Shown here in pieces: positions 50,276 to 62,270 of a stretch of 64,000 bases of DNA. Location of the stretch: NCBI GenBank assembly GCA_044233485.1, contig JBIIJY010000003.1:32481-96480 (forward strand), in the 5' to 3' direction. Source of the stretch: Minisyncoccia bacterium. GTDB taxonomy: Bacteria; Patescibacteriota; Minisyncoccia; Phycocordibacterales; UBA6065. A program made the position numbers and the translations under genes. How positions within the stretch are numbered: the first letter of the stretch is position 1; each line of letters starts with the position of its first letter. The notes below the pieces were generated by a model. The model saw only the letters and a program-made list of their open reading frames with translations. It made no database searches and was not told the origin of the DNA.

Positions 50276-51349
50276 CTACGCATCTTTCATTTTCTTCTTC
50301 TCTGACAAGTCATCGAGGAATTCAACGAGTACCGTTGAGAGTGGAATGGCGAGCAACATACCAATGAAGCCAGCGAGTTTTGCGCCAATTACGAGAGCCA
50401 AAATCACCACAACCGGTGAGAGTCCAGTAACCTTCTTCATCACGAGCGGATAGAAGAGATTACTCTCAAACTGATGTAGTACCATATAAAAACCCAAGAC
50501 GAGTAATCCTGAAGTTGTATTGCCATCGCCGAAAGCGGCCATTGTACCTGGAATAGCAGCGATCACCGGACCGAAAACAGGAATCAGTTCACAAACCCCA
50601 GCAAAGATTGCAAACAACAGAGCTCCTTCAACTTTAAAGATTGTCAGCACGACGTAGATCAGCACTCCCATAACTCCAGCCAAGACAAGCTGTCCTTGCA
50701 TCCACTGCCCTATCTTTCGACTTGAACGCTCCCAGAGGCTCACCACATAGTCCTCATAGTCTGCCGTCGTGACAATTCGTAGAAAACGAGCAACACCGTT
50801 TTGCTGTGCCGCCAAGTAAAAAGAAAGTACGGCAATAAGACCAAACCCTAGCACACCACCGAATAATCTCGAGAAGACAGCCAGTGCCCCTCCACTTCCA
50901 AGTCCGATTAAGTATTCATCGATTTGAAAAAAGAGATCCTGGATCGAGAACTTATCCCCAAAAAGACTCTCTGTGCTCGCTGGATCAAAGATAGTATCTT
51001 TTGCCGGATTCCAGAGCTCGAGATTGTCGATATAGGTCGGCGCAGTTGCCAAAAATGTTGAGGTGTCGGTAAGAAGTCGTGGAAGGAAATAATACGTGAG
51101 ACTCACTGCCAGACTAGCGATTACGCCGTACACCGCGATCACCGCAAACACTCTATTGAGAGAGATCCCAAAGAGCCGCGGCTTCATGAACAATTCGATA
51201 AATGGGTTCATGGCACTGGCGATGACAATAGAAGTCAAAACGACAATGACAATATCTCTCATCCAAAACATCAGAGCTGCCAATGCTATGAAAATGAGCG
51301 TCTTGGCAATCGAACCGGATGAGATTTGTATCGTAATAGTATTCTTCAT
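50276..51349 (-). CDS. AI-2E family transporter (PerM/UPF0118)
   Basis: 357 aa and polytopic. Contains ...ELIPVFGPVIAAIPG... and the C-terminal GMLLAIPL pattern typical of the family. Confidence 0.85.
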   Translation of the reverse strand: MKNTITIQISSGSIAKTLIFIALAALMFWMRDIVIVVLTSIVIASAMNPFIELFMKPRLFGISLNRVFAVIAVYGVIASLAVSLTYYFLPRLLTDTSTFLATAPTYIDNLELWNPAKDTIFDPASTESLFGDKFSIQDLFFQIDEYLIGLGSGGALAVFSRLFGGVLGFGLIAVLSFYLAAQQNGVARFLRIVTTADYEDYVVSLWERSSRKIGQWMQGQLVLAGVMGVLIYVVLTIFKVEGALLFAIFAGVCELIPVFGPVIAAIPGTMAAFGDGNTTSGLLVLGFYMVLHQFESNLFYPLVMKKVTGLSPVVVILALVIGAKLAGFIGMLLAIPLSTVLVEFLDDLSEKKKMKDA

Positions 51350-51400
51350 GCCTCTCTATCATACTATGAGAGACTTGAATATAGTACGCTCTGTGGAGAA

Positions 51401-52787: not shown

Positions 52788-54704
52788 TTACTGTTTTACA
52801 ACCTCATCCCCCGCACGATACCCAGGATCGGTTGTAATACGTGTAGTAAGATTAACTTTTTTGTCGCTCAATGCAACCTGTGTGCGATGATCCACTCCTT
52901 TGAGTTCGATTTGAGTCACCAGATCCGGAACCTGCCCCACCTGATTCACACTCGCCTTAAGCCCGACCTGGAAAGATACCGTCCGAGCTGGCTTACCAAA
53001 CCCTACCCCTGGTTCAAGGGTGCCAATATTCCAGATCACTTCACCTGTACGCTCATTGAATGTCAGTGGTTCATTTTCAGGCAGTCGAAGATCCTTCCAC
53101 TTTACATACGTCGGTAAAATTCCACGAACCACCACATCGTCAGACTGATTTCGAGTATTCGTCACTGTCCAGACGACAGTATACGTTGTCTCTTTATCTG
53201 CCTGAGGTGGAATTACACCACTCTGTACAAATGGGGTAGTTGCTCGAGTCGCTCGTGAAGCGAGAGCCAGTTCTGAGACAAGCTGAACACGTCGTGAGAC
53301 TACCGAATTGAGTGCCACTGGAGCTCCTGATTCATCAGAGCGATTCCCCCGAACACTGATCTCAATAACGAAGGGTTGATAGATTGAATCTGCCAAATCA
53401 CGCGGCACAGTGACATTGAAGTTTAGCTGACCTTGGTCTTGAGGGTTGATAGTGACAAACTCGGGCACACTTCGATTGTTCCATGTAATGACCCCTCGAG
53501 TTGAGTCGTAGTAACCATTTGAATCGGCAACGACTTGACGCTTATCGAGTCCCGGACCAGAGATTCGTAACTCGACCACCGCATCAGCGATTCGAGTCTC
53601 TGAAGTGCTCTGCCAGTTGATCACTCCTCGAATCGTCTCACCACGACGTGCAGAATAATCACTTGAGCTTTCGTCACCATTCAAAGCGAGACTGACATCG
53701 AGAAACGGACGGTCGATCTCTTGCGTATCTTTTCGCACAGCGAGCAATGCCCCTATTTCTTTTTGATCACGCGCAGAGGCCGTACCGACAGAGAATCCAA
53801 ACGTTCGCACATCAGCGTCTTGTCCGATCACTACCCCACGCAGTTTAATTGTCTTTTTTGAACCAGGGGCAAGGGTACCGATTTCCCAGACATCTGAACC
53901 ATATGTCGGGAGCGGATTAGCCGAGGTGAATTTAAATCCAAAAGGATACTCTATCTGCAAAAGCAGACCCGGGAGTGGTTGATTAGTATTTGATTCTACG
54001 GTGACCGTGATTTCCTGCTCTTGCCCTGAATTCACCCGCTCAAGAATATCCGCACTCACCGTCAGCGGCACTGTTCCGATCGAGATTGGATACTGATACG
54101 ACTTCTCAAAAATTGCATTAGAGCCTGGCACTCGATACTCAAGCGTGAATCGAATTGTCAGCGTAGAGTTCTGTGCACCAAAGATGCGCGCCTGAATGTT
54201 CTTGCGAACTTCTTTTTGCGCCAGGACAGTTCCGATATCAATTTTCTCTCGAGCCAATTCAGCATTGCTTGAATCAGCTTTTTTGGTGCCATTAGGAAAA
54301 TCTACTCTCATACTTGAAAAGATGAGAGCTGAATTATTCTTATTCTGGACACTGATATCGAATGAAGAGATGTCACCCGCCCCGACAGCTTTCGGACCAA
54401 TTACATTAATGATTATATTGTCGACCGAGACGAAATTTTTATCTTGATAGATCTTGTAACCGAAATAGCCAACCGAGAGAATACAGGCAATGAGAGCAAA
54501 GTAAAACAGCGCTTTGAGAAAATGATGCTTGGGAGCATGATCGTAGGGAGAATCTTCTTTCGGGAGCGGAGACTCGTCCCATGCATTAATAACCAATGGC
54601 TCGTCGAGGTGAACCTGACGTTTTGAATCGCGCTTTATCTGATGCTCAGGTGAATGAATTCGTCCATCAAGCATATCAAGTCGACTTGGTTTCTTTTCTT
54701 CCAT
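52788..54704 (-). CDS. membrane-anchored hypothetical protein with several beta-sandwich-like modules
   Basis: 638 aa. A charged N-terminus is followed by one TM segment (FLKALFYFALIACILSVGYFGY). The long extracytoplasmic region is made of repeated beta-rich units of roughly 100 aa. No family recognised with confidence. Confidence 0.7.
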   Translation of the reverse strand: MEEKKPSRLDMLDGRIHSPEHQIKRDSKRQVHLDEPLVINAWDESPLPKEDSPYDHAPKHHFLKALFYFALIACILSVGYFGYKIYQDKNFVSVDNIIINVIGPKAVGAGDISSFDISVQNKNNSALIFSSMRVDFPNGTKKADSSNAELAREKIDIGTVLAQKEVRKNIQARIFGAQNSTLTIRFTLEYRVPGSNAIFEKSYQYPISIGTVPLTVSADILERVNSGQEQEITVTVESNTNQPLPGLLLQIEYPFGFKFTSANPLPTYGSDVWEIGTLAPGSKKTIKLRGVVIGQDADVRTFGFSVGTASARDQKEIGALLAVRKDTQEIDRPFLDVSLALNGDESSSDYSARRGETIRGVINWQSTSETRIADAVVELRISGPGLDKRQVVADSNGYYDSTRGVITWNNRSVPEFVTINPQDQGQLNFNVTVPRDLADSIYQPFVIEISVRGNRSDESGAPVALNSVVSRRVQLVSELALASRATRATTPFVQSGVIPPQADKETTYTVVWTVTNTRNQSDDVVVRGILPTYVKWKDLRLPENEPLTFNERTGEVIWNIGTLEPGVGFGKPARTVSFQVGLKASVNQVGQVPDLVTQIELKGVDHRTQVALSDKKVNLTTRITTDPGYRAGDEVVKQ

Positions 54705-54709
54705 AGGTA

Positions 54710-55246
54710 TTAGTATACTATCGCGAGTTCCTGCAATCTACGAGTAAGATGCTCTGTATAACGCACCTTAACCTCTGGCGTTTCGGCCAGAAGGTCTTTA
54801 AGTGAATGTGACTGATACTGTTCCATAAAGCCAAGCAAGGACAGTACGCGGAGCGTGAGGGCTCGATCGACGAAGCTACTCGACTCAGGAGAACAGAGAG
54901 CGCTCGCTGCTGAGAACTCATCAAAAATCTCTCGGAGTTTTTCTTCACGTACAATCAATTTTGTAATTGCCAGCGTCGCCAGTGAATACGGAACGCGCAA
55001 CCCACTCTCTGGCGCGACTCGTTCTATCCCGGTCAGACGCCAGGTATTCTTCCCTTTTACAAGTGAGAGGGAGAGTTTTACCCCAGAGACAAGGTGCATT
55101 CTATTTTTTGAAGCGAGTTTGCGAATTCCACTCGCCACGACATAAATCACACCAAAACGATCTGTTAAAAAGCAGAGTTCTTTATCAGCTTCTCCGCGAG
55201 AGAATTCTCGGAGAAGAAAGGCGTGAGTTGTGTAGATTGTATACAC
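54710..55246 (-). CDS. recO: DNA repair protein RecO (short form)
   Basis: 178 aa with a GTG start. The N-terminal OB-fold pattern AFLLREFSRGEADKELCFLTDRFGVIYVVASGIRK..S.. fits RecO_N. No Cys-rich zinc-finger segment is present. Confidence 0.65.
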   Translation of the reverse strand: MYTIYTTHAFLLREFSRGEADKELCFLTDRFGVIYVVASGIRKLASKNRMHLVSGVKLSLSLVKGKNTWRLTGIERVAPESGLRVPYSLATLAITKLIVREEKLREIFDEFSAASALCSPESSSFVDRALTLRVLSLLGFMEQYQSHSLKDLLAETPEVKVRYTEHLTRRLQELAIVY

Positions 55247-55255
55247 TGCAAAATC

Positions 55256-58200
55256 TTAACGACCAAACTTCAATTCACTTTCTTCTAGATTCTCCATTTT
55301 GCCTTCCTCTACCTCGAGAGCGGTTACGAGTGTCACCTTCTGAATTTGTTGACGTATCTCGGTCGCTTGAAGCAATGTGTGCACTTCTGCTGGCACTACT
55401 GCTTTCAGTGTCACCTGATCTCGAATCGAGAAATTATTTTCTTTACGAGCATCTTGTACCAGACGGATGAACTCTCGCACAACCCCTTTTGCTTTAAGTT
55501 CTGGTGTCAATTTTGTTTCAAGTGCATACTCGGTGCCTTCATGTATTTCTTCAACATTGAGTTCAGCCTTGAGAATGTCTTTAAACTCTTGCGTGTACTC
55601 ACCAAATACCCCTTTCGGAATTGTGAATGATTCGAGCGGCTGACGAACATTGACTCCTGCCTGCTGACGGAGCTTGAGAGCATTGGTAATCACCTCGCGT
55701 AGAGACTTCATACCATCAAGGAGTGCCTGATCGTGGCTTGTGACACTATCCCACTCTTCAAGATGAATACTTTCAGAACCTCGGCCAATCTCGAAAGCGA
55801 GTGTCTCGGCAAAGAACGGCGCATACGGTGCGAGTAATTTGGCGATTGCATGTAGTACAAAGCGAGTCGTCTCTAGCGCTTCTCGACGATCTTCTACATC
55901 GTCACTCTTGAACCGCTCGCGACTGCGACGCGTGTACCAGGTAGAGACATCATCAACAAGCGTTGTCAGTTCTCGAACACCAACATCAAGAGTATACGAC
56001 TCAAGAGCATGTGTGATAGCTGCATGCGCTCCGCGAAGGCGTTCAATCATCCAGCGGTCGAGAATATGTGTTGTGTGAGCCTGTGCACTGATAGTCTCAT
56101 CAGCATAGAGCTTATAGAGAGTTAAGACATTTTCCAGACGATTTAAAACTTTGTTCTGGACTTCGGCTACTGATTTTTCAGAGAAATGTAGATCTTCCGC
56201 TGAAACAACCGGTGAACCAAGGAGGACAAGTCGCAGAGCGTCCATACTGTATGCTCGAATGACCTCGAGCGGGTCTGGATAGTTTTTGAGACTCTTGGAC
56301 ATTTTCTTACCATCTTCTGCCAACACAAGACCGTTCACAATCACGTTCTTAAATGGACTTCGTCCAAAGAGTGCTGTACCGAGCACAAGCAGAGCATAGA
56401 ACCAACCACGAGTCTGATCGAGTCCTTCAGCAATAAAGTCCGCCGGAAATCCCTTTCCTTGAGCTGGATCAAAAGCCATCGTCGGTGTTCCAGTAAAACA
56501 AGCCTCGCCGTACGGCATTGAACCAGATTCAAACCAACAATCAAAGACATCTGGCACTCGAGTCATCAACTTTCCTTTTGAATCAAGTATTTCAAGACCA
56601 TCGATATACGGTCGGTGAAAATCGATTTCGTATGAGGGGTTACGCGGAAGTTTTACACTGAGCACTTCTCGAACTTCAGCGTTACCAAATGGCGCAACGA
56701 GCTCATCAGTAACATGTCCGAGAAAATGACTTTGCAATACTCGTAGAGGTGTACCATGAGCAATAATCAAAACATTTTTGCCAAAAAACTTTTCTGAAAT
56801 ATCTTCTACAGCTGCAACCATACGAGCGCGCACTGCAGTCAGATTTTCCATATCAGGAAGCGTGTAGGTAAAGGCTTGCTTACGATGTGGAAACTGTGCG
56901 TGGAATTCTTCCCAGTTTTTCCCATGAAGGGCGCGAGCACCGAGTTCACCAAGTCGTGGATCAACAACGATATGTGCATCAGAAAGCCCGAGGACATCTT
57001 GCACCTCTTTAAATGTCTCCTGTGTGCGCACGAATGGAGACACCGCCACCACATCTATATGTTTACCTTTGAGTTTTTGAGCACTCAAGCGCACCTGGGC
57101 TACCCCTTCAGGAGTGAGGTGATCTGGCGCATTTGGATCAGTACTGACTTTATTCTGAAGATTACTTTCGGCTTGCCCGTGACGCATCAGATACAGCGTG
57201 TTGCGGACTTTTGAATGTGCCACAATATCTTCAACTGTACTGAGAACTTTTACTTCAGTACCATCTTCACTTTTCCATACCGGTAGTGGCGCCCCCCAGT
57301 ATCGAGTACGTGAGATTGCCCAATCGCGAGCACCCTGGAGCCACTTTCCAAAACGCCCTTCCCCCACATGAGAAGGCACCCAGCGTACATCTTTATTAGC
57401 AGCTACGAGCTCGTCTTTGAAAGATGTTACTTTCACAAACCAACTTGAGGCAGCGTAGTTTAGAAGCGGAGTCTCACAGCGCCAACAATGCGGATATGAG
57501 TGAACGAGTTTTTCCTTTGCGAAAAGCGCACCGTGCATATGAAGCCACTTGATGACTTCTACGTCTGTTTTCTGATGAGGATCCTTTTCCCCTGCATCAC
57601 CCTTCGGCTTTACATACAACCCGACGAAATCACGAACCTCGGGCTTGAAACGCCCGTCGACGCCGACATGCTGAATAAATGGCAGAGAGTGTTTTACACC
57701 GAGCTGATAGTCGTCTTCGCCATACCCAGGAGCGATGTGAACTACCCCGGTACCATCGTCAGTTGTAACGAAGTCTGCGGCATAGATTTTCCAGCCATTC
57801 TCGCGATTCTTGAGATTAGAATCCTGGGCGTAGTAATCGAAAACCGGCGCATATTTCTTACCAGTAAGAGCTAAACCCTTATACGTCTTTAGAATTTTGA
57901 AATCTTTCTTAAATAGCGTCTCGACGCGAGCTTGAGCAACAATATACTTTTCAGAACTACCAACTAACTCAACCTCTGCATAATCTATTTCAGAATTGAC
58001 CGCAAGAGCGACGTTACCAGGAAGTGTCCAAGGTGTGGTCGTCCAAGCAATGATAAAAGTCTGTGGTTCGTCGACCAGCGCAAATTTTACATACACTGAG
58101 ATATCAGTGATATCTTTGTACCCCTGATTCACCTCGAAGTTTGAAAGCGTTGTTCCACAACGTGGACACAAATGCATACTCTTGAATCCTTCATAGACTA

Positions 58201-58711
58201 ACCCCTTATCAAACAATGTTTTAAAGACCCACCAGACGGATTTGGTGTACTCAATGTCCATTGTCCGATAGTCATTCTCCATGTCTACAAAACGCCCAAA
58301 TCGCGGCACTTGCTCACGCCAAACTCCAGCGTATCGAAGCACTACCTCTCGAGCAGTTTCATTGAACTTCTGAATTCCAAACTGCTCAATGTCTTTTTTA
58401 CTCTTGAGTCCAAGCTCTTTCTCAACAAGGTTCTCTATCGGAAGCCCATGACAATCCCATCCCCATCGTCGAGGTACACGAAACCCACACATCGTCTTGT
58501 ACCGAGGAATGACATCTTTGATTGAGCCCGCCAAAATATGTCCATAATGAGGAGTACCTGAAGCAAAGGGTGGACCATCGAAGAAAATAAATTCTCCACG
58601 TGGAGCGTTTTTCTCCAAAGTCTTTTCGAAAATTCGATGCTGCTTCCAATGGGCGAGAGTTTTTTCTTCTCGTCGCGCCGTTTCGCTCATGTGTGGATTT
58701 GTATGTGACAT
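55256..58711 (-). CDS. ileS: isoleucine--tRNA ligase (type 2) carrying an inserted histidine-phosphatase domain
   Basis: 1151 aa. HIGH-type PHYGHIL, the CP1 editing region (TTTPWTLPGNVA), WAISRTRYWGAPLPVW, DCWFESGSMPYG and KMSKSLKN. Residues around 503-686 carry the RHG / SPFVRTQET / AHG motifs of the histidine phosphatase superfamily. Confidence 0.96.
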   Translation of the reverse strand: MSHTNPHMSETARREEKTLAHWKQHRIFEKTLEKNAPRGEFIFFDGPPFASGTPHYGHILAGSIKDVIPRYKTMCGFRVPRRWGWDCHGLPIENLVEKELGLKSKKDIEQFGIQKFNETAREVVLRYAGVWREQVPRFGRFVDMENDYRTMDIEYTKSVWWVFKTLFDKGLVYEGFKSMHLCPRCGTTLSNFEVNQGYKDITDISVYVKFALVDEPQTFIIAWTTTPWTLPGNVALAVNSEIDYAEVELVGSSEKYIVAQARVETLFKKDFKILKTYKGLALTGKKYAPVFDYYAQDSNLKNRENGWKIYAADFVTTDDGTGVVHIAPGYGEDDYQLGVKHSLPFIQHVGVDGRFKPEVRDFVGLYVKPKGDAGEKDPHQKTDVEVIKWLHMHGALFAKEKLVHSYPHCWRCETPLLNYAASSWFVKVTSFKDELVAANKDVRWVPSHVGEGRFGKWLQGARDWAISRTRYWGAPLPVWKSEDGTEVKVLSTVEDIVAHSKVRNTLYLMRHGQAESNLQNKVSTDPNAPDHLTPEGVAQVRLSAQKLKGKHIDVVAVSPFVRTQETFKEVQDVLGLSDAHIVVDPRLGELGARALHGKNWEEFHAQFPHRKQAFTYTLPDMENLTAVRARMVAAVEDISEKFFGKNVLIIAHGTPLRVLQSHFLGHVTDELVAPFGNAEVREVLSVKLPRNPSYEIDFHRPYIDGLEILDSKGKLMTRVPDVFDCWFESGSMPYGEACFTGTPTMAFDPAQGKGFPADFIAEGLDQTRGWFYALLVLGTALFGRSPFKNVIVNGLVLAEDGKKMSKSLKNYPDPLEVIRAYSMDALRLVLLGSPVVSAEDLHFSEKSVAEVQNKVLNRLENVLTLYKLYADETISAQAHTTHILDRWMIERLRGAHAAITHALESYTLDVGVRELTTLVDDVSTWYTRRSRERFKSDDVEDRREALETTRFVLHAIAKLLAPYAPFFAETLAFEIGRGSESIHLEEWDSVTSHDQALLDGMKSLREVITNALKLRQQAGVNVRQPLESFTIPKGVFGEYTQEFKDILKAELNVEEIHEGTEYALETKLTPELKAKGVVREFIRLVQDARKENNFSIRDQVTLKAVVPAEVHTLLQATEIRQQIQKVTLVTALEVEEGKMENLEESELKFGR

Positions 58712-58757
58712 AAAATAAATAAAAGAATAAGCCAGACGCGAGTGAGTCTGGCTTATC
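58712..58757 (-). terminator. intrinsic terminator immediately upstream of the ileS start codon (attenuator terminator, segments 3:4)
   Basis: Minus strand: GAUAAGCCAGAC (58757-58746), loop UCACUCGC, GUCUGGCUUAU (58737-58727), then UUCUUUUAUUUAUUUU running straight into the ileS ATG at 58711. Confidence 0.75.
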
Positions 58758-58769
58758 TTTTGAGGAATT

Positions 58770-58836
58770 AAGTCAAACTCACGAGGTACTACCCGTTACT
58801 AATTGCAATAGAAATTCGTGTACCTCGGTTTGACTT
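58770..58836 (-). promoter_or_regulatory. 17-bp leader hairpin (segments 1:2) of the ileS leader
   Basis: AAGUCAAAC+CGAGGUAC (58836-58820) pairs perfectly with GUACCUCG (58789-58782) and GUUUGACUU (58778-58770), with a 3-nt UGA bulge and a 30-nt loop. Confidence 0.6.
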
Positions 58837-58839
58837 CAT
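58789..58839 (-). CDS. candidate 16-aa leader peptide MKSNRGTRISIAISNG (three Ile codons)
   Basis: ATG at 58839-58837 and TAG at 58791-58789. Ile codons (all ATT) are at positions 9, 11 and 13, inside the loop of hairpin 1:2. The stop codon abuts segment 2. Translation is unproven. Confidence 0.4.
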   Translation of the reverse strand: MKSNRGTRISIAISNG

Positions 58840-58846
58840 GTGATGT

Positions 58847-58875
58847 ATAGTAATACGTCTCGGGTCTCTTTTCAA
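58847..58875 (-). promoter_or_regulatory. candidate promoter for the ileS leader
   Basis: TTGAAA (58875-58870), a 17-nt spacer, then TACTAT (58852-58847). The predicted start at about 58839-58840 is at or next to the leader-peptide ATG. Confidence 0.35.
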
Positions 58876-58876
58876 G

Positions 58877-60520
58877 CTACTTAAGTGTAGCGGTCCTACC
58901 AAGTACTGAACACTTACTCGTCATCAGCGCCCCGAAGCCTAGATACTCAGTCGCATAGTGGAGTCGCCCCTTGTAATTTGGGAGTGTCTTTTTATCAGCA
59001 GAAAATTCACTATCACCTTTCGATGCTGTGCTTGTGGCTGTGCATGAGGCAACAACATTCTTTTTCTCAATCTGTATTGAGTCAAAATAGAGGCGCGTGG
59101 TTGCTGCCGTGTCCCACTCTCCCGCCTTAAGACCAGTTCGTAGTGTCGTAATCTCTTCACTGCGGTTCTTCAGACGAGCTGGTATGGTACTAGTCGACTG
59201 ACCGACCACTTTAATGAACTCTTTGGTATCGAGATAGTATGCATTGAGTGAATTATCTAATGCTTTTTGAATACGAACTGTCCGAGCAGTATTTTCAGCT
59301 TCAGTTGGAATGATACGATCTGAAACTGCCAACAGTGGATTAACTGAAGCTACGCGGGCATACGCAAAATCAAGAATCGACAGACCGACAAAGGTGCTCG
59401 TCGGATGATCTGCGTCGGCTAGGACTTTTTCACCAAGCTCAATGAGATTTCGTGGGCCAGCGATAGCACCTTTGTAATTTTTCTTTGCCTGAAGATCGAT
59501 TGACTGAATGACGGCGAGTCGTACCGCATTGCCCACTTTACTGTATGAGCAACCTGTCAGAGCCACGTCGCAATAAAAACGAGCTCTCCCTTTCTGACCA
59601 ACGACTGCATTTATGTAGGCTCCATACTTACTGACAAGTGCCACCTGAGCTGGCGTTACCGTAGTACTCTCTTGAGTGATCTCACGCACAACCCTCTCCT
59701 CATCAGCTGTAAGATCCGGCAAACCCTTGAAGAGCTCATACACGTTCTCGGCCAATGGAACATTTGGCGAGGTCGTCGCTTTTATTCCTGAATCAGTAAT
59801 CGTGACTGTCGGAGTAGTTGATGCGAGTAATGTAGGTGAACGTCGTGGAGTGGTCGTCGGTAGTGGTACATTTAGAATCGGTTGCTCGAATTCACTCAAA
59901 TCAATTGGTTGCATGCTCTGGTATTTGTTCCAGGCAAATACTCCAGCAGTAACAAGAATACACACGACGATTACGATATACATCCACAAAGGATTCTTTG
60001 GTGGGTGTTGTGGAAGGGCTGCCTGTGAAGCTTCATTGGCCTTCAAGACATCTTTATTCACAATACGTGGACCGATAGTCGGTTCCGTGCTTGGCCCTGC
60101 TGGCTGAACTTTTGCAAATGGAGTTTGAAAAGCTGTCGGTTGTTTAACGGCTTCTTGCAAAGTAGTTCTAAAGGCACTGGCATTAAACTGACTCGCTGAT
60201 GCACCACCAAATCGTGCCTGGGTAGAATTAGCAACTTGAGTTTGGGGCATCTGCATAGCAGGAGATGCCACCTGTTTTGGTTGGGTGGTATTCCCTGATG
60301 TTTGAGCCTGAGGGGATACGACCGGTGAAGACGCTGGACTTGTCACTGGAGCGACTGGCTTGGCCGGCACCACTGGTGCAGGACCAACGAGTGGCTTGAG
60401 TGCCTCTTGAATATCTCCTTCTTGCCATCCAACCGCCTTAAGAGCAGTGTATATTTCTGTCTCAGCAATGCCGAGTGCGCGTTCTTGTGCAATATACGCT
60501 TTAAGTTCTGGAGTGATCAT
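58877..60520 (-). CDS. hypothetical bitopic membrane protein (small cytoplasmic N-domain, Pro/Ala/Gln-rich linker, one TM, large external domain)
   Basis: 547 aa. MITPELKAYIAQERALGIAETEIYTALKAVGWQEGDIQEAL is followed by a low-complexity stretch, then the TM segment LWMYIVIVVCILVTAGVFAW, then about 340 aa with no recognised family. Confidence 0.7.
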   Translation of the reverse strand: MITPELKAYIAQERALGIAETEIYTALKAVGWQEGDIQEALKPLVGPAPVVPAKPVAPVTSPASSPVVSPQAQTSGNTTQPKQVASPAMQMPQTQVANSTQARFGGASASQFNASAFRTTLQEAVKQPTAFQTPFAKVQPAGPSTEPTIGPRIVNKDVLKANEASQAALPQHPPKNPLWMYIVIVVCILVTAGVFAWNKYQSMQPIDLSEFEQPILNVPLPTTTPRRSPTLLASTTPTVTITDSGIKATTSPNVPLAENVYELFKGLPDLTADEERVVREITQESTTVTPAQVALVSKYGAYINAVVGQKGRARFYCDVALTGCSYSKVGNAVRLAVIQSIDLQAKKNYKGAIAGPRNLIELGEKVLADADHPTSTFVGLSILDFAYARVASVNPLLAVSDRIIPTEAENTARTVRIQKALDNSLNAYYLDTKEFIKVVGQSTSTIPARLKNRSEEITTLRTGLKAGEWDTAATTRLYFDSIQIEKKNVVASCTATSTASKGDSEFSADKKTLPNYKGRLHYATEYLGFGALMTSKCSVLGRTATLK

Positions 60521-60572: not shown

Positions 60573-62270
60573 CTACATTTGTTTAGGAACTTGAATACCT
60601 AACAAGTTGAGACCATGAGTCAGTACCTGTGCGACCGCTTGGGTGAGACGAAGTCTGTATCCAGTCACTTCTCCGGCTTCAAGGATTTTGTTTTGGGCAT
60701 AGAAAGCATTGAACTCTCGGGCAAGCTCGATCAAATACCCCGCGATAGTATGCGGTGAAAATTCTTCATACGCTCGCCGCGTAATCTGCGGATACGTTGC
60801 GATCAGACGTTCAAGATTGCCGATTTCAAGAGGAGGAACGACAGCTTCCGTTCCAGTAGCTTTTGCTAAAACCGACCGTGCTCGAACAACACTGTATTGA
60901 ATATACGGACCAGAGTCACCTTCAAACGCTATCGCCTTTTCTTCATCATAAATAATATCCGACCCTGGACTCGAGCGAAGGATGGTGTACTTGATTGCTC
61001 CGATACCAACTTTTTCACTCACCTCTTTTCGTGTCTGCTCGTCGTACGCACGCTCTGCTATTTTCTCATGAACCAACGCCTGCGCATCTTCGATCATTGA
61101 TTCTCCAGTGATGACATTGCCCGTTCGTGACGACATTTTACCTGAAGCGAAACGCATCATTCCGTGACCGATATGTTTAGTACGCTGCGCGATTTTAGAA
61201 TCTATCTCCGAGAGCGCCGAAAGGACTACCTTAAAATATTCGTTTTGCTCACTCGCTGTAATGATGATCGATTGCTCAAGCTCTGGATGTCGACGAAACT
61301 TCTCAGTGTTCAAACCAATCTCTTTTGCCTCATAGGTTGGGAGCCCAGTTGAGTTGATAAACACACGTGTGTGAAGACCATTCTTTTCACCTTTATACAC
61401 CACCGCCCCATCACTTTTTTCAAACACTCCAGTAGCAACATGAGCGAGGACAATTTCTTTTCCCGGAAATGAAATTTCACTCTCAAAAATATATTCATTA
61501 AAAACAGTTCCTACTTTTTTGTAGATTTCCTCGAAGTGCTCTAAACTCCATCGCTTTCCAGTCTCGTAAATCTGTACGAGGTCTGCATCACTTTTCTCAA
61601 AGAGTTTTTTGTTTATTGAATCAATCTCGGCTTTTATCTCCGGAGACTGTTCATACTGAGCGGTTCCGTAGACGTACATCTTTCCAAGAAATCCGGTTCG
61701 GACGATAACCGGGTCGCTTTCTTGAGGTAGCTCTTGTTGATGCTTGGTAATTGCCCATACGGCTTTAGCAATATGTAACCCAATATCACTCGGGTAACAC
61801 ATTCGAATCATTTCTGCTCCAGCATTTTCAATGATACGAGAAATTGATTCGCCGAGAGCATTATTCATGAGGTGGCCGATATGGAGAGGCTTGAAGGCAT
61901 TTGGATCAGTGTATTCAACTAAAACTTTTTTACCTGCCAGAATATCCAATGAGCCAAAATGTTCAGTCGTATTCAAAACAACGTCAGTATAAAAACGAGG
62001 TACGAGAAAAAGATTAATGAATCCTGGACCAGCAATCTCAATCTTACTAATAAGATCCGCTGAATTGGTCTGAAGTTCAGTGACTATCTGCTCTGCTAAC
62101 TCTCGTGGATTTTTCTTAAGTTCCTTAGCGTGGACGAGGGCGACGTTGGTGGCAAACTCGCCATGAGTTTCAATGACTGAACGCTCGATTGAAAAAGCTT
62201 TCGGGGATTCGATTCCGAGCGACCGAAGCGTCTGACTGATTCGTTTAATAAGCGTCGACTGTATATCCAT
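60573..62270 (-). CDS. argS: arginine--tRNA ligase
   Basis: 565 aa. Contains the Arg_tRNA_synt_N region, HIGH-type PLHIGHLMN and the DALR anticodon-binding domain, and ends in the characteristic terminal M. Confidence 0.96.
   Translation of the reverse strand: MDIQSTLIKRISQTLRSLGIESPKAFSIERSVIETHGEFATNVALVHAKELKKNPRELAEQIVTELQTNSADLISKIEIAGPGFINLFLVPRFYTDVVLNTTEHFGSLDILAGKKVLVEYTDPNAFKPLHIGHLMNNALGESISRIIENAGAEMIRMCYPSDIGLHIAKAVWAITKHQQELPQESDPVIVRTGFLGKMYVYGTAQYEQSPEIKAEIDSINKKLFEKSDADLVQIYETGKRWSLEHFEEIYKKVGTVFNEYIFESEISFPGKEIVLAHVATGVFEKSDGAVVYKGEKNGLHTRVFINSTGLPTYEAKEIGLNTEKFRRHPELEQSIIITASEQNEYFKVVLSALSEIDSKIAQRTKHIGHGMMRFASGKMSSRTGNVITGESMIEDAQALVHEKIAERAYDEQTRKEVSEKVGIGAIKYTILRSSPGSDIIYDEEKAIAFEGDSGPYIQYSVVRARSVLAKATGTEAVVPPLEIGNLERLIATYPQITRRAYEEFSPHTIAGYLIELAREFNAFYAQNKILEAGEVTGYRLRLTQAVAQVLTHGLNLLGIQVPKQM

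What the first reader, a model, noticed from the sequence alone, without database searches (positions are those of the whole stretch)
58712..58876. Four-segment terminator/antiterminator leader with an Ile-rich 16-codon ORF directly upstream of ileS
Seen in sequence (minus strand). The 165-nt gap before ileS contains a good promoter match (TTGAAA-17-TACTAT) and a perfect 17-bp hairpin (segments 1:2). It ends in a strong intrinsic terminator (segments 3:4) whose U-tract runs into the ileS ATG, leaving no room for a separate ileS promoter. Segment 2 extended (GAGUUUGACUUA, 58780-58769) is nearly identical to segment 4 plus its flank. It can pair with segment 3 (UAAGCCAGACUC, 58755-58744) through 10 Watson-Crick pairs, 1 G-U and 1 mismatch, which is a classical antiterminator alternative. 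An ORF (MKSNRGTRISIAISNG) starts inside segment 1, places three ATT Ile codons in the hairpin loop and stops exactly where segment 2 begins. Inference: a ribosome stalled on the Ile codons would hold segment 1 open and leave segment 2 free to form 2:3, giving read-through and more IleRS. A ribosome reaching the stop would mask segment 2, so 3:4 terminates. This is the trp-operon and E. coli pheM-pheST logic applied to ileS. I know of no description of it for ileS, which elsewhere uses T-boxes.
Basis: partly seen in the sequence, partly recalled or inferred. Interest (0 to 1): 0.7.

Follow-up and report, generated by a model that had tools for sequence, protein, structure and literature searches.

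The report
Candidate isoleucine-sensing attenuator before ileS
Directly in front of the isoleucyl-tRNA synthetase gene of an uncultured Patescibacteria bacterium sit a conserved promoter, a 16-codon mini-gene, two mutually exclusive hairpins and a terminator, which most likely form a classical ribosome-sensed on/off switch not yet described for this gene or phylum; the support is sequence evidence from only two species.

Summary
On the minus strand there is a promoter TTGAAA-17-TACTAT and, 7 nt later, an ATG opening MKSNRGTRISIAISNG*. A 9+8-bp hairpin (1:2) encloses three ATT codons. A strong terminator (3:4) has a U-tract that runs into the ileS ATG. The alternative 2:3 helix has 13 bp plus 1 mismatch (chance p~0.005). 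No T-box or other Rfam family matches.

New evidence:
- The organism is a Paceibacteria-type Patescibacterium with no Shine-Dalgarno sequences. First genes, including ileS in most relatives, are leaderless (-10, about 6-8 nt, ATG). The mini-ORF occupies exactly that position.
- Only one other species carries the locus. Third codon positions are only 42-49% identical, yet the leader is 124/128 identical. It holds the longest perfect run (88 nt) in 12.8 kb. Both promoter hexamers are kept while the spacer diverged.
- Other strong terminators in the window that lie outside coding sequence sit downstream of gene ends.

Weak points:
- There is no covariation, and two 1:2 pairs are broken without compensation.
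- There are only three non-adjacent Ile codons.
- The spacer and loop are also invariant, which the model does not require.

Verdict: a conserved cis-acting terminator leader is very likely (~0.75). Ile-codon ribosome sensing is plausible (~0.5) but unproven. It is a new member of a known kind.

The parts
58877..58879 (-). Stop codon (TAG) of the upstream orphan 547-aa ORF (58877-60520)
   Evidence: The ORF has homologues in only two protein clusters out of 5.8 billion proteins.
58870..58875 (-). -35 hexamer TTGAAA of the leader promoter
   Evidence: It is identical in the second species, while 5 of the 17 spacer bases differ. TTGAAA also occurs at the -35 position of the ileS promoter in several relatives, such as L004, L005 and L020.
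58847..58852 (-). -10 hexamer TACTAT
   Evidence: It is identical in the second species. It ends 7 nt before the mini-ORF ATG, the geometry of leaderless genes in this genome.
58789..58839 (-). 16-codon mini-ORF MKSNRGTRISIAISNG plus its TAG stop; the predicted transcript starts at or next to its ATG (leaderless)
   Evidence: The ORF stays open and in frame in the second species, where it reads MKSNLSTRISIAISNG and carries one synonymous GCA>GCC change.
58801..58815 (-). Three ATT (Ile) codons (58815-13, 58809-07, 58803-01) inside the loop of hairpin 1
   Evidence: P(three or more ATT in 15 codons) = 0.01 and P(three or more Ile) = 0.07, using this window's codon usage.
58820..58836 (-). Segment 1 (AAGUCAAACCGAGGUAC), the 5' arm of hairpin 1
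   Evidence: Its three base changes in the second species (CGAGG>CUGAG) are the only stem changes in the leader, and they are not compensated.
58769..58789 (-). Segment 2: the 3' arm of hairpin 1 (GUACCUCG, UGA bulge, GUUUGACUU). Its 3' part, 58782-58769, is the 5' strand of the antiterminator
   Evidence: It is invariant between the two species.
58742..58757 (-). Segment 3: the terminator 5' arm GAUAAGCCAGAC (58757-58746) plus the loop bases UCAC. Positions 58755-58742 form the 3' strand of the antiterminator
58726..58737 (-). Segment 4: the terminator 3' arm GUCUGGCUUAUU
   Evidence: All 12 pairs are invariant.
58712..58725 (-). U-rich tract of the terminator (CUUUUAUUUAUUUU), running into the ileS ATG
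   Evidence: The length of the final T run varies among contigs (4, 6 or 7 T).
55256..58711 (-). ileS (IleRS, 1151 aa from ATG 58711, or 1144 aa from ATG 58690), the presumed regulated gene
   Evidence: Pfam; TIGR00392 ileS, 835 bits.

Best explanation
The 165-nt gap is the transcribed leader of ileS and acts as a ribosome-mediated (leader-peptide) transcription attenuator.

Transcription starts from TTGAAA-17-TACTAT at or next to the A of ATG 58839, so the leader RNA is leaderless. A 70S ribosome can load on its 5' AUG and translate the 16-codon ORF.

- With no ribosome, or after the ribosome has finished, segment 1 pairs with segment 2. Segment 3 is then free to pair with 4, and RNA polymerase terminates in the U-tract just before ileS.
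- If the ribosome reaches the stop codon (58791-58789), it covers the start of segment 2. Helix 2:3 cannot nucleate, and 3:4 terminates.
- If charged tRNA-Ile is scarce, the ribosome stalls on the ATT codons in the loop and covers segment 1. Segment 2 then pairs with segment 3 as soon as 3 is made (13 bp, -12.4 kcal/mol), the terminator cannot form, and polymerase reads into ileS. More IleRS is made.

Shown:
- the sequence elements, their energies and the non-random 2:3 complementarity;
- conservation of the promoter hexamers and of the whole leader in the only other species;
- the leaderless-start geometry;
- the absence of another recognisable ileS promoter.

Inferred:
- the transcription start point;
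- translation of the mini-ORF;
- stalling on Ile codons;
- kinetic competition between 2:3 and 3:4;
- termination itself.
For: 1. Structure. The fold has z = -5.3. Hairpin 1 is -23.9, the terminator -17.6 to -20.5 and helix 2:3 -12.4 kcal/mol. The 2:3 complementarity has p = 0.005-0.006 against natural 30-mers and shuffles.

2. Ribosome masking. A mask placed as for a ribosome on Ile codon 1 or 2 makes the nascent RNA (up to 58741) fold into 2:3. A mask at the stop codon does not.

3. Conservation. The second species (L081; IleRS 90% aa) is 77.7% identical in DNA over 12.8 kb, and third codon positions are 42-49% identical. The leader 58839-58712 is 124/128 identical and contains the longest perfect run of the alignment (88 nt, 58803-58716).

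4. Promoter footprint. All 12 hexamer bases are identical, against 17 of the 24 spacer and -10-to-ATG bases.

5. Leaderless context.
- No gene in the window has a Shine-Dalgarno sequence.
- 15 of the 30 'promoter + 5-9 nt + ATG' sites in 64 kb open ORFs of 90 or more codons, most of them matching the window's gene starts.
- Chance short-ORF sites occur at about 1 per 10 kb of strand, which predicts about 0.02 in this gap.
- In 57 of 72 related genomes a -10-like hexamer ends 4-12 nt before the ileS ATG, most often 6 nt before it.

6. Mini-ORF in the second species. It is kept open and in frame. The loop change is synonymous, and the clustered change reads as CC[+T]GAG[-G]TAC, which preserves the frame.

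7. Terminator context. The other strong terminators in the window that lie outside coding sequence sit between convergent genes or just after a gene end. This is the only one found within 15 nt upstream of a co-directional start codon.

8. No T-box or other Rfam family matches.
Against: - Only three Ile codons, and they are not adjacent. Ser is equally frequent in the peptide. P(three or more Ile) = 0.07.
- No covariation. 26 of 29 pairs never vary, and two pairs of the inner 1:2 stem are broken in the second species without compensation. Hairpin 1 goes from -23.9 to -16.8 kcal/mol.
- The 13-nt spacer and most of the terminator loop are also invariant, which the classical model does not require.
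- Only two species carry the element. None of about 135 other ileS loci has it or an Ile-rich mini-ORF.
- With segment 1 masked, the full-length RNA still prefers 3:4 thermodynamically, so read-through would depend on kinetics.
- A weak -10-like TACAAA lies 7 nt before ATG 58690, and both substitutions there fall in that 7-nt gap. Some independent ileS transcription therefore cannot be excluded.
- There are no transcript or translation data.
Confidence: 0.5

Rival explanations
1. The leader is a conserved cis-acting terminator leader of ileS, but the sensor is not Ile-codon stalling. One possibility is that a trans factor switches 1:2/3:4 against 2:3. Candidates are IleRS itself, uncharged tRNA-Ile bound in a non-T-box way, another protein or a small molecule. 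The other possibility is that the terminator is simply a constitutive, partly leaky dampener or insulator against read-through from the newly inserted upstream orphan gene.
For: - Every base of the spacer (58770-58758) and of the terminator loop is invariant, although unconstrained intergenic bases nearby changed at about 29% and third codon positions at about 50%.
- There is no covariation, and the changes in segment 1 are uncompensated.
- Ile enrichment is statistically weak.
- The orphan ORF lies between argS and ileS only in this genus. In several relatives argS directly precedes ileS.
Against: - No known RNA family, T-box included, matches.
- The 2:3 alternative (p~0.005), the ATG at the exact leaderless position and the stop codon abutting segment 2 would all be coincidences.
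- A pure insulator needs neither a promoter downstream of the orphan gene nor hairpin 1.
- The apical loop, which looks like an anticodon loop (UUGCAAU), changes to UUGCCAU in the second species, so it is not a conserved tRNA mimic.
Confidence: 0.25
2. The promoter, mini-ORF, hairpins and terminator form an independent small gene: a roughly 120-nt sRNA, or an mRNA for a 16-aa peptide. It merely lies next to ileS. ileS is transcribed on its own from a weak promoter after the terminator, as a leaderless mRNA starting at ATG 58690 (TACAAA-7 nt-ATG).
For: - The unit has its own promoter and terminator and is conserved like a structural RNA.
- Gene callers and alignments with relatives favour ATG 58690.
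- TACAAA and the ATG are conserved, while both substitutions fall in the 7 nt between them, the same pattern as at the upstream promoter.
- ileS is leaderless in most relatives.
Against: - TACAAA lacks the final T, which is present in every -10 hexamer scored next to a gene start in this window and in the relatives (the scans themselves required A at position 2 and T at position 6).
- It has no TG extension at the right distance and no -35.
- The distance to any upstream element varies with the 4, 6 or 7-T polymorphism.
- Both substitutions are also synonymous in the frame that starts at ATG 58711.
- The leader promoter has exactly the sequence and geometry of the relatives' ileS promoters, so it is most simply the ileS promoter.
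- No second copy and no Rfam relative of the RNA exists.
Confidence: 0.15
3. The arrangement is a chance product with no function: an ordinary terminator of the upstream gene, plus a fortuitous hairpin and a fortuitous ORF.
For: The promoter match alone is not above chance. Short ORFs and hairpins are common in AT-rich spacers.
Against: - The leader is 124/128 identical and holds an 88-nt perfect run, against 42-49% identity at third codon positions.
- The fold has z = -5.3.
- The 2:3 complementarity has p~0.005.
- The promoter hexamers are conserved while the spacer diverged.
Confidence: 0.03

Closest known systems
E. coli pheM-pheST attenuator (leader-peptide attenuation of an aminoacyl-tRNA synthetase operon; from established knowledge, and cited as the gamma-proteobacterial example in PMC1262725)
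   Same: A short ORF carrying codons for the cognate amino acid. An intrinsic terminator directly before a synthetase gene. Mutually exclusive 1:2, 2:3 and 3:4 helices. The same logic: low charged tRNA gives read-through and more synthetase.
   Different: - pheM has five Phe codons in 14; here there are three non-adjacent Ile codons in 16.
- pheM is translated from a Shine-Dalgarno site. Here the ORF would be leaderless, in a genome without Shine-Dalgarno sequences.
- The regulatory codons lie in the loop between segments 1 and 2 rather than inside segment 1.
- The regulated gene is ileS.
- There is no experimental support here.
trp operon attenuator (trpL) of E. coli
   Same: Four-segment design. 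The stop codon is placed so that a terminating ribosome masks segment 2. The terminator is more stable than the antiterminator, so control is kinetic.
   Different: trpL controls a biosynthetic operon and has tandem regulatory codons inside segment 1. Its helices are supported by covariation and genetics, and none of that is available here.
Predicted leader-peptide attenuators upstream of leuS and trpS2 in Streptomyces (PMC1262725)
   Same: Computationally predicted classical attenuators in front of synthetase genes, outside the proteobacteria.
   Different: They occur in a different phylum and control different synthetases. That same survey found only T-boxes, not attenuators, in front of ileS.
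T-box riboswitches upstream of ileS (Firmicutes; translational variants in Actinobacteria, PMC1262725)
   Same: The same gene is regulated, with the same physiological logic (sensing tRNA-Ile charging). In Firmicutes the switch is also between a terminator and an antiterminator.
   Different: The T-box sensor is uncharged tRNA bound to the specifier loop and the UGGN bulge. Here there is no RF00230 match even at E<=10, no 7-nt bulge and no Stem I features.
Leaderless polycysteine short ORFs of mycobacteria ('Cys ribulon', bioRxiv 10.1101/834739)
   Same: A leaderless 5'-AUG short ORF that acts as an amino-acid sensor through ribosome stalling and controls the downstream genes of the same transcript.
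   Different: There the stalled ribosome opens a structure that sequesters the downstream ribosome-binding site, so control is translational. Here the output element is an intrinsic terminator, and the genome has no Shine-Dalgarno sites. The mycobacterial ORFs have runs of Cys codons; here there are three spaced Ile codons.

Membership tests
Ribosome-mediated (leader-peptide) transcription attenuator | A promoter-proximal short ORF with a credible translation start | tested here: met
   The ATG lies 7 nt after the -10. That geometry opens ORFs of 90 or more codons at 15 of 30 sites in this window and precedes ileS in most relatives. The ATG and the reading frame are kept in the second species. 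Translation itself was not observed.
Ribosome-mediated (leader-peptide) transcription attenuator | Enrichment of codons for the amino acid related to the regulated gene | tested here: inconclusive
   Three ATT codons among 16, not adjacent. P(three or more Ile of 15) = 0.07 and P(three or more ATT) = 0.01. Ser is also present three times.
Ribosome-mediated (leader-peptide) transcription attenuator | An intrinsic terminator (3:4) between the short ORF and the regulated gene | tested here: met
   A 12-bp stem of -17.6 kcal/mol (-20.5 extended) followed by a U-rich tract that ends at the ileS ATG.
Ribosome-mediated (leader-peptide) transcription attenuator | An antiterminator (2:3) mutually exclusive with both 1:2 and 3:4 | tested here: met
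   13 bp plus 1 mismatch, -12.4 kcal/mol, sharing 58782-58770 with 1:2 and 58755-58746 with 3:4. Chance p~0.005.
Ribosome-mediated (leader-peptide) transcription attenuator | ORF position such that a ribosome stalled at the regulatory codons frees segment 2, while a ribosome at the stop codon masks it | tested here: met
   Constrained folds with about 30-nt masks. The footprint size is an assumption.
Ribosome-mediated (leader-peptide) transcription attenuator | Helices maintained in relatives, ideally through compensatory changes | tested here: inconclusive
   Only two species. 26 of 29 pairs are invariant, none shows a compensatory change, and 2 are broken. Overall conservation is very strong.
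Ribosome-mediated (leader-peptide) transcription attenuator | Premature termination, relieved by starvation for the amino acid | not testable with these tools
   Needs Term-seq, in vitro transcription-translation or reporters.
T-box riboswitch (RF00230) | A match to the T-box covariance model | tested here: not met
   No hit at E<=10 in 58000-59500. No family reaches its gathering score anywhere in the window. No hit at E<=1 in the second species.
T-box riboswitch (RF00230) | An antiterminator with a 7-nt bulge carrying UGGN, and a Stem I specifier loop | tested here: not met
   Helix 2:3 has only a 1x1 A-C mismatch. The T-box-like 13-mer GGGUAGUACCUCG (58794-58782) has UAGU instead of UGGN, and no downstream CCC strand exists to close helix A1 (read; the consensus is from memory).
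Leaderless sensory short ORFs (mycobacterial type) | A stalled ribosome unmasks a sequestered ribosome-binding site of the downstream gene | tested here: not met
   No Shine-Dalgarno sequence precedes ileS or any other gene here. The output structure is a terminator.
Independent small RNA gene | Its own promoter and terminator, with the downstream gene transcribed separately | tested here: inconclusive
   The promoter and terminator are present. Downstream there is only the weak -10-like TACAAA-7-ATG(58690), which lacks the final T.

The most novel reading that the evidence does not exclude
The whole 128-nt leader, including the spacer and loop bases that a leader-peptide attenuator does not need, is conserved because it is a new kind of cis-regulatory RNA. 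In this reading it is recognised by a trans factor, for example IleRS itself or uncharged tRNA-Ile bound in a non-T-box way. The mini-ORF would be secondary or would provide a second input. That would be a synthetase control element unrelated to T-boxes, found in the Candidate Phyla Radiation.
Probability: 0.15. Interest if true: 0.75.

Novelty: new member of a known kind. Interest (0 to 1): 0.45.

Why it matters
Almost nothing is known about gene regulation in Patescibacteria (the Candidate Phyla Radiation). These bacteria have tiny genomes, cannot make amino acids and live off hosts.

A working leader-peptide attenuator here would show several things:
- They monitor tRNA-Ile charging and adjust IleRS.
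- Transcription and translation are coupled in them.
- A leaderless 5'-AUG mini-ORF can drive a terminator/antiterminator switch in an organism that has no Shine-Dalgarno sequences.

It would also be the first leader-peptide attenuator reported for ileS, which is otherwise known to be controlled by T-boxes. The element is small and self-contained, so it can be tested directly in vitro or in a heterologous reporter.

Tried and rejected
- **T-box.** There is no Rfam hit. A T-box-like 13-mer (GGGUAGUACCUCG) was noticed, but it lacks UGGN and the rest of the antiterminator. It was judged coincidental.
- **Rfam noise.** Low-scoring hits (OrzO-P, Betaproteobacteria toxic sRNA, ncr952; E = 1.7-9, far below their gathering scores) were dismissed as terminator-driven noise.
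- **Repeat or mobile element.** blastn and nhmmer found no second copy in the window or in 87 loci. A covariance model of the leader found nothing significant in 135 loci.
- **Homologous or analogous leaders in relatives.** Mini-ORFs with clustered Ile codons are not enriched upstream of ileS in 74 loci. A screen for terminators within 45 nt of ileS that lack a nearby -10 returned only this genus plus six unrelated-looking cases.
- **More close relatives.** None turned up in the GTDB species genomes, in the 5.8-billion-protein search with full-length IleRS, with the orphan ORF or with the N-terminal 160 aa, or in the JGI metagenome scan. Only one extra species was found.
- **Origin by duplication of the ileS start region.** The local alignment score is not above shuffles (p = 0.31).
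- **tRNA anticodon-loop mimic at the tip of hairpin 1.** The 7-nt loop changes from UUGCAAU to UUGCCAU between the species.
- **Function of the upstream orphan ORF.** It has no Pfam, PHROG, PADLOC or NCBIfam match.
Full report
**1. What is in the sequence**

Read on the minus strand, the order of elements is as follows.
- The upstream 547-aa ORF ends at TAG 58879-58877.
- Two bases later comes TTGAAA (58875-58870), then a 17-nt spacer, then TACTAT (58852-58847).
- Seven bases after that, ATG 58839 opens a 16-codon ORF, MKSNRGTRISIAISNG, which stops at TAG 58791-58789.
- AAGUCAAACCGAGGUAC (58836-58820) pairs with GUACCUCG-uga-GUUUGACUU (58789-58770). This is 9 + 8 bp with a 3-nt bulge, not a perfect stem. 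The 30-nt loop contains the three ATT codons.
- After a 12-nt spacer comes a 12-bp terminator stem (58757-58746 with 58737-58726) and a U-rich tract (58725-58712) that ends at the first ileS ATG (58711).

The 191-nt region folds at -50.5 kcal/mol, against -31.9 +/- 3.5 for dinucleotide shuffles (z = -5.3). The pattern scanner finds both the promoter and the terminator. Promoter-like matches of this quality are no more frequent than in shuffles, so the promoter match proves nothing on its own.

**2. The alternative helix**

Segment 2 can pair with segment 3 over 13 bp with one A-C mismatch. The strands are GUGAGUUUGaCUUA (58782-58769) and UAAGcCAGACUCAC (58755-58742).

Energies:

| Element | kcal/mol |
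|---|---|
| Hairpin 1 (1:2) | -23.9 |
| Helix 2:3, as a hairpin | -12.4 |
| Terminator (3:4) | -17.6 (-20.5 extended) |

Only 0.5% of natural 30-mers from the window, and 0.6% of shuffles of the segment-2 region, pair with segment 3 as well as this.

I then masked about 30 nt at a time to imitate a ribosome.
- With the mask at the first or second Ile codon, the nascent RNA up to 58741 folds into 2:3.
- With the mask at the stop codon, 2:3 does not form.
- In the full-length RNA, 3:4 is thermodynamically preferred even when segment 1 is masked. Read-through would therefore be kinetically controlled, as in the trp attenuator (that comparison is from established knowledge).

**3. No known RNA family**

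Rfam gives only noise at E<=10 around the leader. Nothing reaches a gathering score in the whole window, and nothing appears at E<=1 in the second species. There is no T-box.

**4. The organism and its expression signals**

The IleRS relatives are all Patescibacteria, with names such as Paceibacteria, Parcubacteria, Taylorbacteria and Vogelbacteria. The best species representative is only 68% identical over the N-terminal 300 aa.

No gene in the window is preceded by a Shine-Dalgarno sequence. Many first genes instead have a TAnnnT -10, often with a TGn extension, 6-9 nt before the ATG. Of the 30 'promoter + 5-9 nt + ATG' sites on both strands of the 64 kb, 15 open ORFs of 90 or more codons, most of them matching the window's gene starts. 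The mini-ORF site has one of the best promoter scores among the 13 short cases, and most of the others with weaker -10s lie inside coding sequence. Chance predicts about 0.02 such sites in a 165-nt gap.

In 57 of 72 related genomes a -10-like hexamer ends 4-12 nt before the ileS ATG, most often 6 nt before it. It is frequently preceded by TTGAAA and by the upstream gene's terminator. In this clade, then, ileS is normally a leaderless mRNA.

In the window the same promoter geometry is present, but its ATG opens the mini-ORF. The hairpins and terminator then separate it from ileS. This makes translation of the mini-ORF credible, and it makes the leader promoter the most economical candidate for the ileS promoter.

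**5. Comparative evidence**

The locus exists in only one other species.
- L081 (also L085-L087) has IleRS at 90% aa identity and the orphan ORF at 79%.
- The next IleRS relatives are at about 55%.
- The metagenome scan and the search for N-terminal fragments added nothing closer.

Over 12.8 kb the two species are 77.7% identical in DNA. Third codon positions are only 42-49% identical.

Against that background:
- The leader 58839-58712 is 124/128 identical.
- It contains the longest perfect run of the alignment (88 nt, 58803-58716).
- It gives the only run of three consecutive 60-nt windows at 97% identity or more.

The promoter shows a footprint-like pattern. Both hexamers are identical, 5 of the 17 spacer bases differ, and 2 of the 7 bases between the -10 and the ATG differ.

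Changes inside the leader:
- CGAGG>CUGAG in segment 1. This breaks two pairs of the inner 1:2 stem and turns one into G-U. It is not compensated. Hairpin 1 goes from -23.9 to -16.8 kcal/mol.
- GCA>GCC in the loop, which is synonymous in the mini-ORF.
- The ORF stays open and in frame (MKSNLSTRISIAISNG). The clustered change can be read as a +1/-1 indel pair that restores the frame. That is a hint of coding constraint, not proof.
- The length of the final T run varies: 4, 6 or 7 T.

No compensatory change exists anywhere. The helices are therefore supported by conservation and energetics only.

The spacer and most of the terminator loop are invariant too. A simple attenuator does not require that. 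Neighbouring unconstrained bases changed at about 29%.

**6. Context**

Strong intrinsic terminators are rare in the window. The others that lie outside coding sequence sit between convergent genes (around 550, 33050 and 46060) or just after a gene end (around 38590). The ileS one is the only one found within 15 nt upstream of a co-directional start codon.

Downstream of it I find no credible promoter.
- The best candidate is TACAAA, 7 nt before the second ATG (58690).
- It lacks the final T that is present in every -10 hexamer scored next to a gene start in this window and clade (the scans themselves required that T).
- It has no -35, and the T-run polymorphism changes the distance to anything upstream.

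Public gene calls do start ileS at 58690. The TIGR00392 model aligns from residue 9. The two substitutions between 58711 and 58690 are synonymous in frame, and they also lie in the 7-nt gap after TACAAA. The true start, and a weak independent promoter, therefore remain open.

**7. Interpretation**

I consider it very likely (about 0.75) that this is the cis-acting leader of ileS and that its terminator conditionally limits transcription into ileS.

This is the best single explanation (about 0.5). It accounts for:
- the ATG at the leaderless position;
- the stop codon abutting segment 2;
- the Ile codons between segments 1 and 2;
- the non-random 2:3 helix;
- the physiological logic, which is the same as for pheST and for T-box-controlled synthetases.

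Its weak points are the modest Ile signal (P = 0.07 for Ile, 0.01 for ATT), the absence of covariation and the unexplained invariance of the spacer and loop.

The rivals are:
- the same leader with another sensor, or a constitutive dampener of read-through from the newly inserted orphan gene (0.25);
- an independent small gene next to a separately transcribed leaderless ileS (0.15);
- chance (0.03).

**8. Comparison with what is known**

- Leader-peptide attenuators of synthetase genes are known for E. coli pheST and have been predicted for Streptomyces leuS and trpS2. In the same survey ileS had only T-boxes (PMC1262725).
- My full-text searches found no leader-peptide attenuator for ileS.
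- Leaderless sensory short ORFs are established in mycobacteria, but they act by unmasking a ribosome-binding site rather than through a terminator (bioRxiv 10.1101/834739).

If it is real, the element is a new member of the leader-peptide attenuator kind. It would be in a new phylum, control a new gene and have a leaderless leader ORF. It is of moderate interest and directly testable.

Noticed in passing
window 55256-58711 (-), IleRS residues about 506-670: The IleRS carries a complete histidine-phosphatase (His_Phos_1, PF00300) domain inserted in the catalytic core. It lies between WAISR...PLPVW and the DCWFESG region. It has an intact RHG motif (residues 510-512) and a second His in an AHG motif at residues 651-653. 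All 120 best homologues (Paceibacteria and relatives) have the same insertion. A full-text search found no paper that describes it.
   Followed up: partly
window 58877-60520 (-): The 547-aa ORF between argS and ileS is an orphan. It has only two protein clusters in 5.8 billion proteins (this species and L081, 79% identity) and no Pfam, PHROG, PADLOC or NCBIfam match. In several relatives argS directly precedes ileS, so the ORF and the leader are novelties of this genus. The ORF has its own leaderless-type promoter (TGATACCAT-8 nt-ATG).
   Followed up: partly
whole window; for example ATGs at 2827 (+) and at 62270, 28805, 34854 and 7140 (-): The genome has essentially no Shine-Dalgarno sequences. 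First genes have a TAnnnT -10 (often TGn-extended) 6-9 nt before the ATG, so they are leaderless. Internal genes have A/C/U-rich upstream contexts such as CACAC-ATG. Half of all 'promoter + 5-9 nt + ATG' sites open ORFs of 90 or more codons.
   Followed up: yes
L004, L005, L020, L035, L047, L060 and others, 6-8 nt before the ileS ATG: Across Paceibacteria, ileS is preceded by a conserved extended -10 (aaaaTGCTAgtAT) 6 nt before the ATG. It often follows TTGAAA and the upstream gene's terminator. This is a clade-wide leaderless ileS promoter.
   Followed up: partly
L008 2855-2998 and L016 2829-2992: Two distant relatives have a strong promoter (TTGACG-17-TATTCT or TAGAGT) right after argS. It is followed by a hairpin and a terminator, and then by a separate -10 plus the ileS ATG. 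This may be a small RNA gene or another kind of leader. There is no Rfam match and no Ile-rich ORF.
   Followed up: partly
window 54688-54748, 52825-52883 and 51336-51382 (compared with L081): These are further perfect-identity tracts of 61, 59 and 47 nt between the two species, despite near-saturated third codon positions. They lie at the recO/DUF11 junction, at the 3' end of the DUF11 gene, and in the spacer before the AI-2E transporter gene. They are probably promoters or other regulatory elements.
   Followed up: no
window 1-64000: No tRNA, tmRNA, rRNA or any Rfam family is detected at gathering score in 64 kb (Rfam and ARAGORN).
   Followed up: yes
L097 about 1200-1343: In this metagenome contig ileS is preceded by a canonical T-box sequence (GGGTGGTACCGCGGGAGG) and a terminator. 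The contrast shows what a real ileS T-box looks like in the same scan.
   Followed up: no
window 58712-58716; L081, L086, L087: The T run just before ATG 58711 is length-polymorphic (4, 6 or 7 T) among contigs. This could be real variation or homopolymer assembly error.
   Followed up: no
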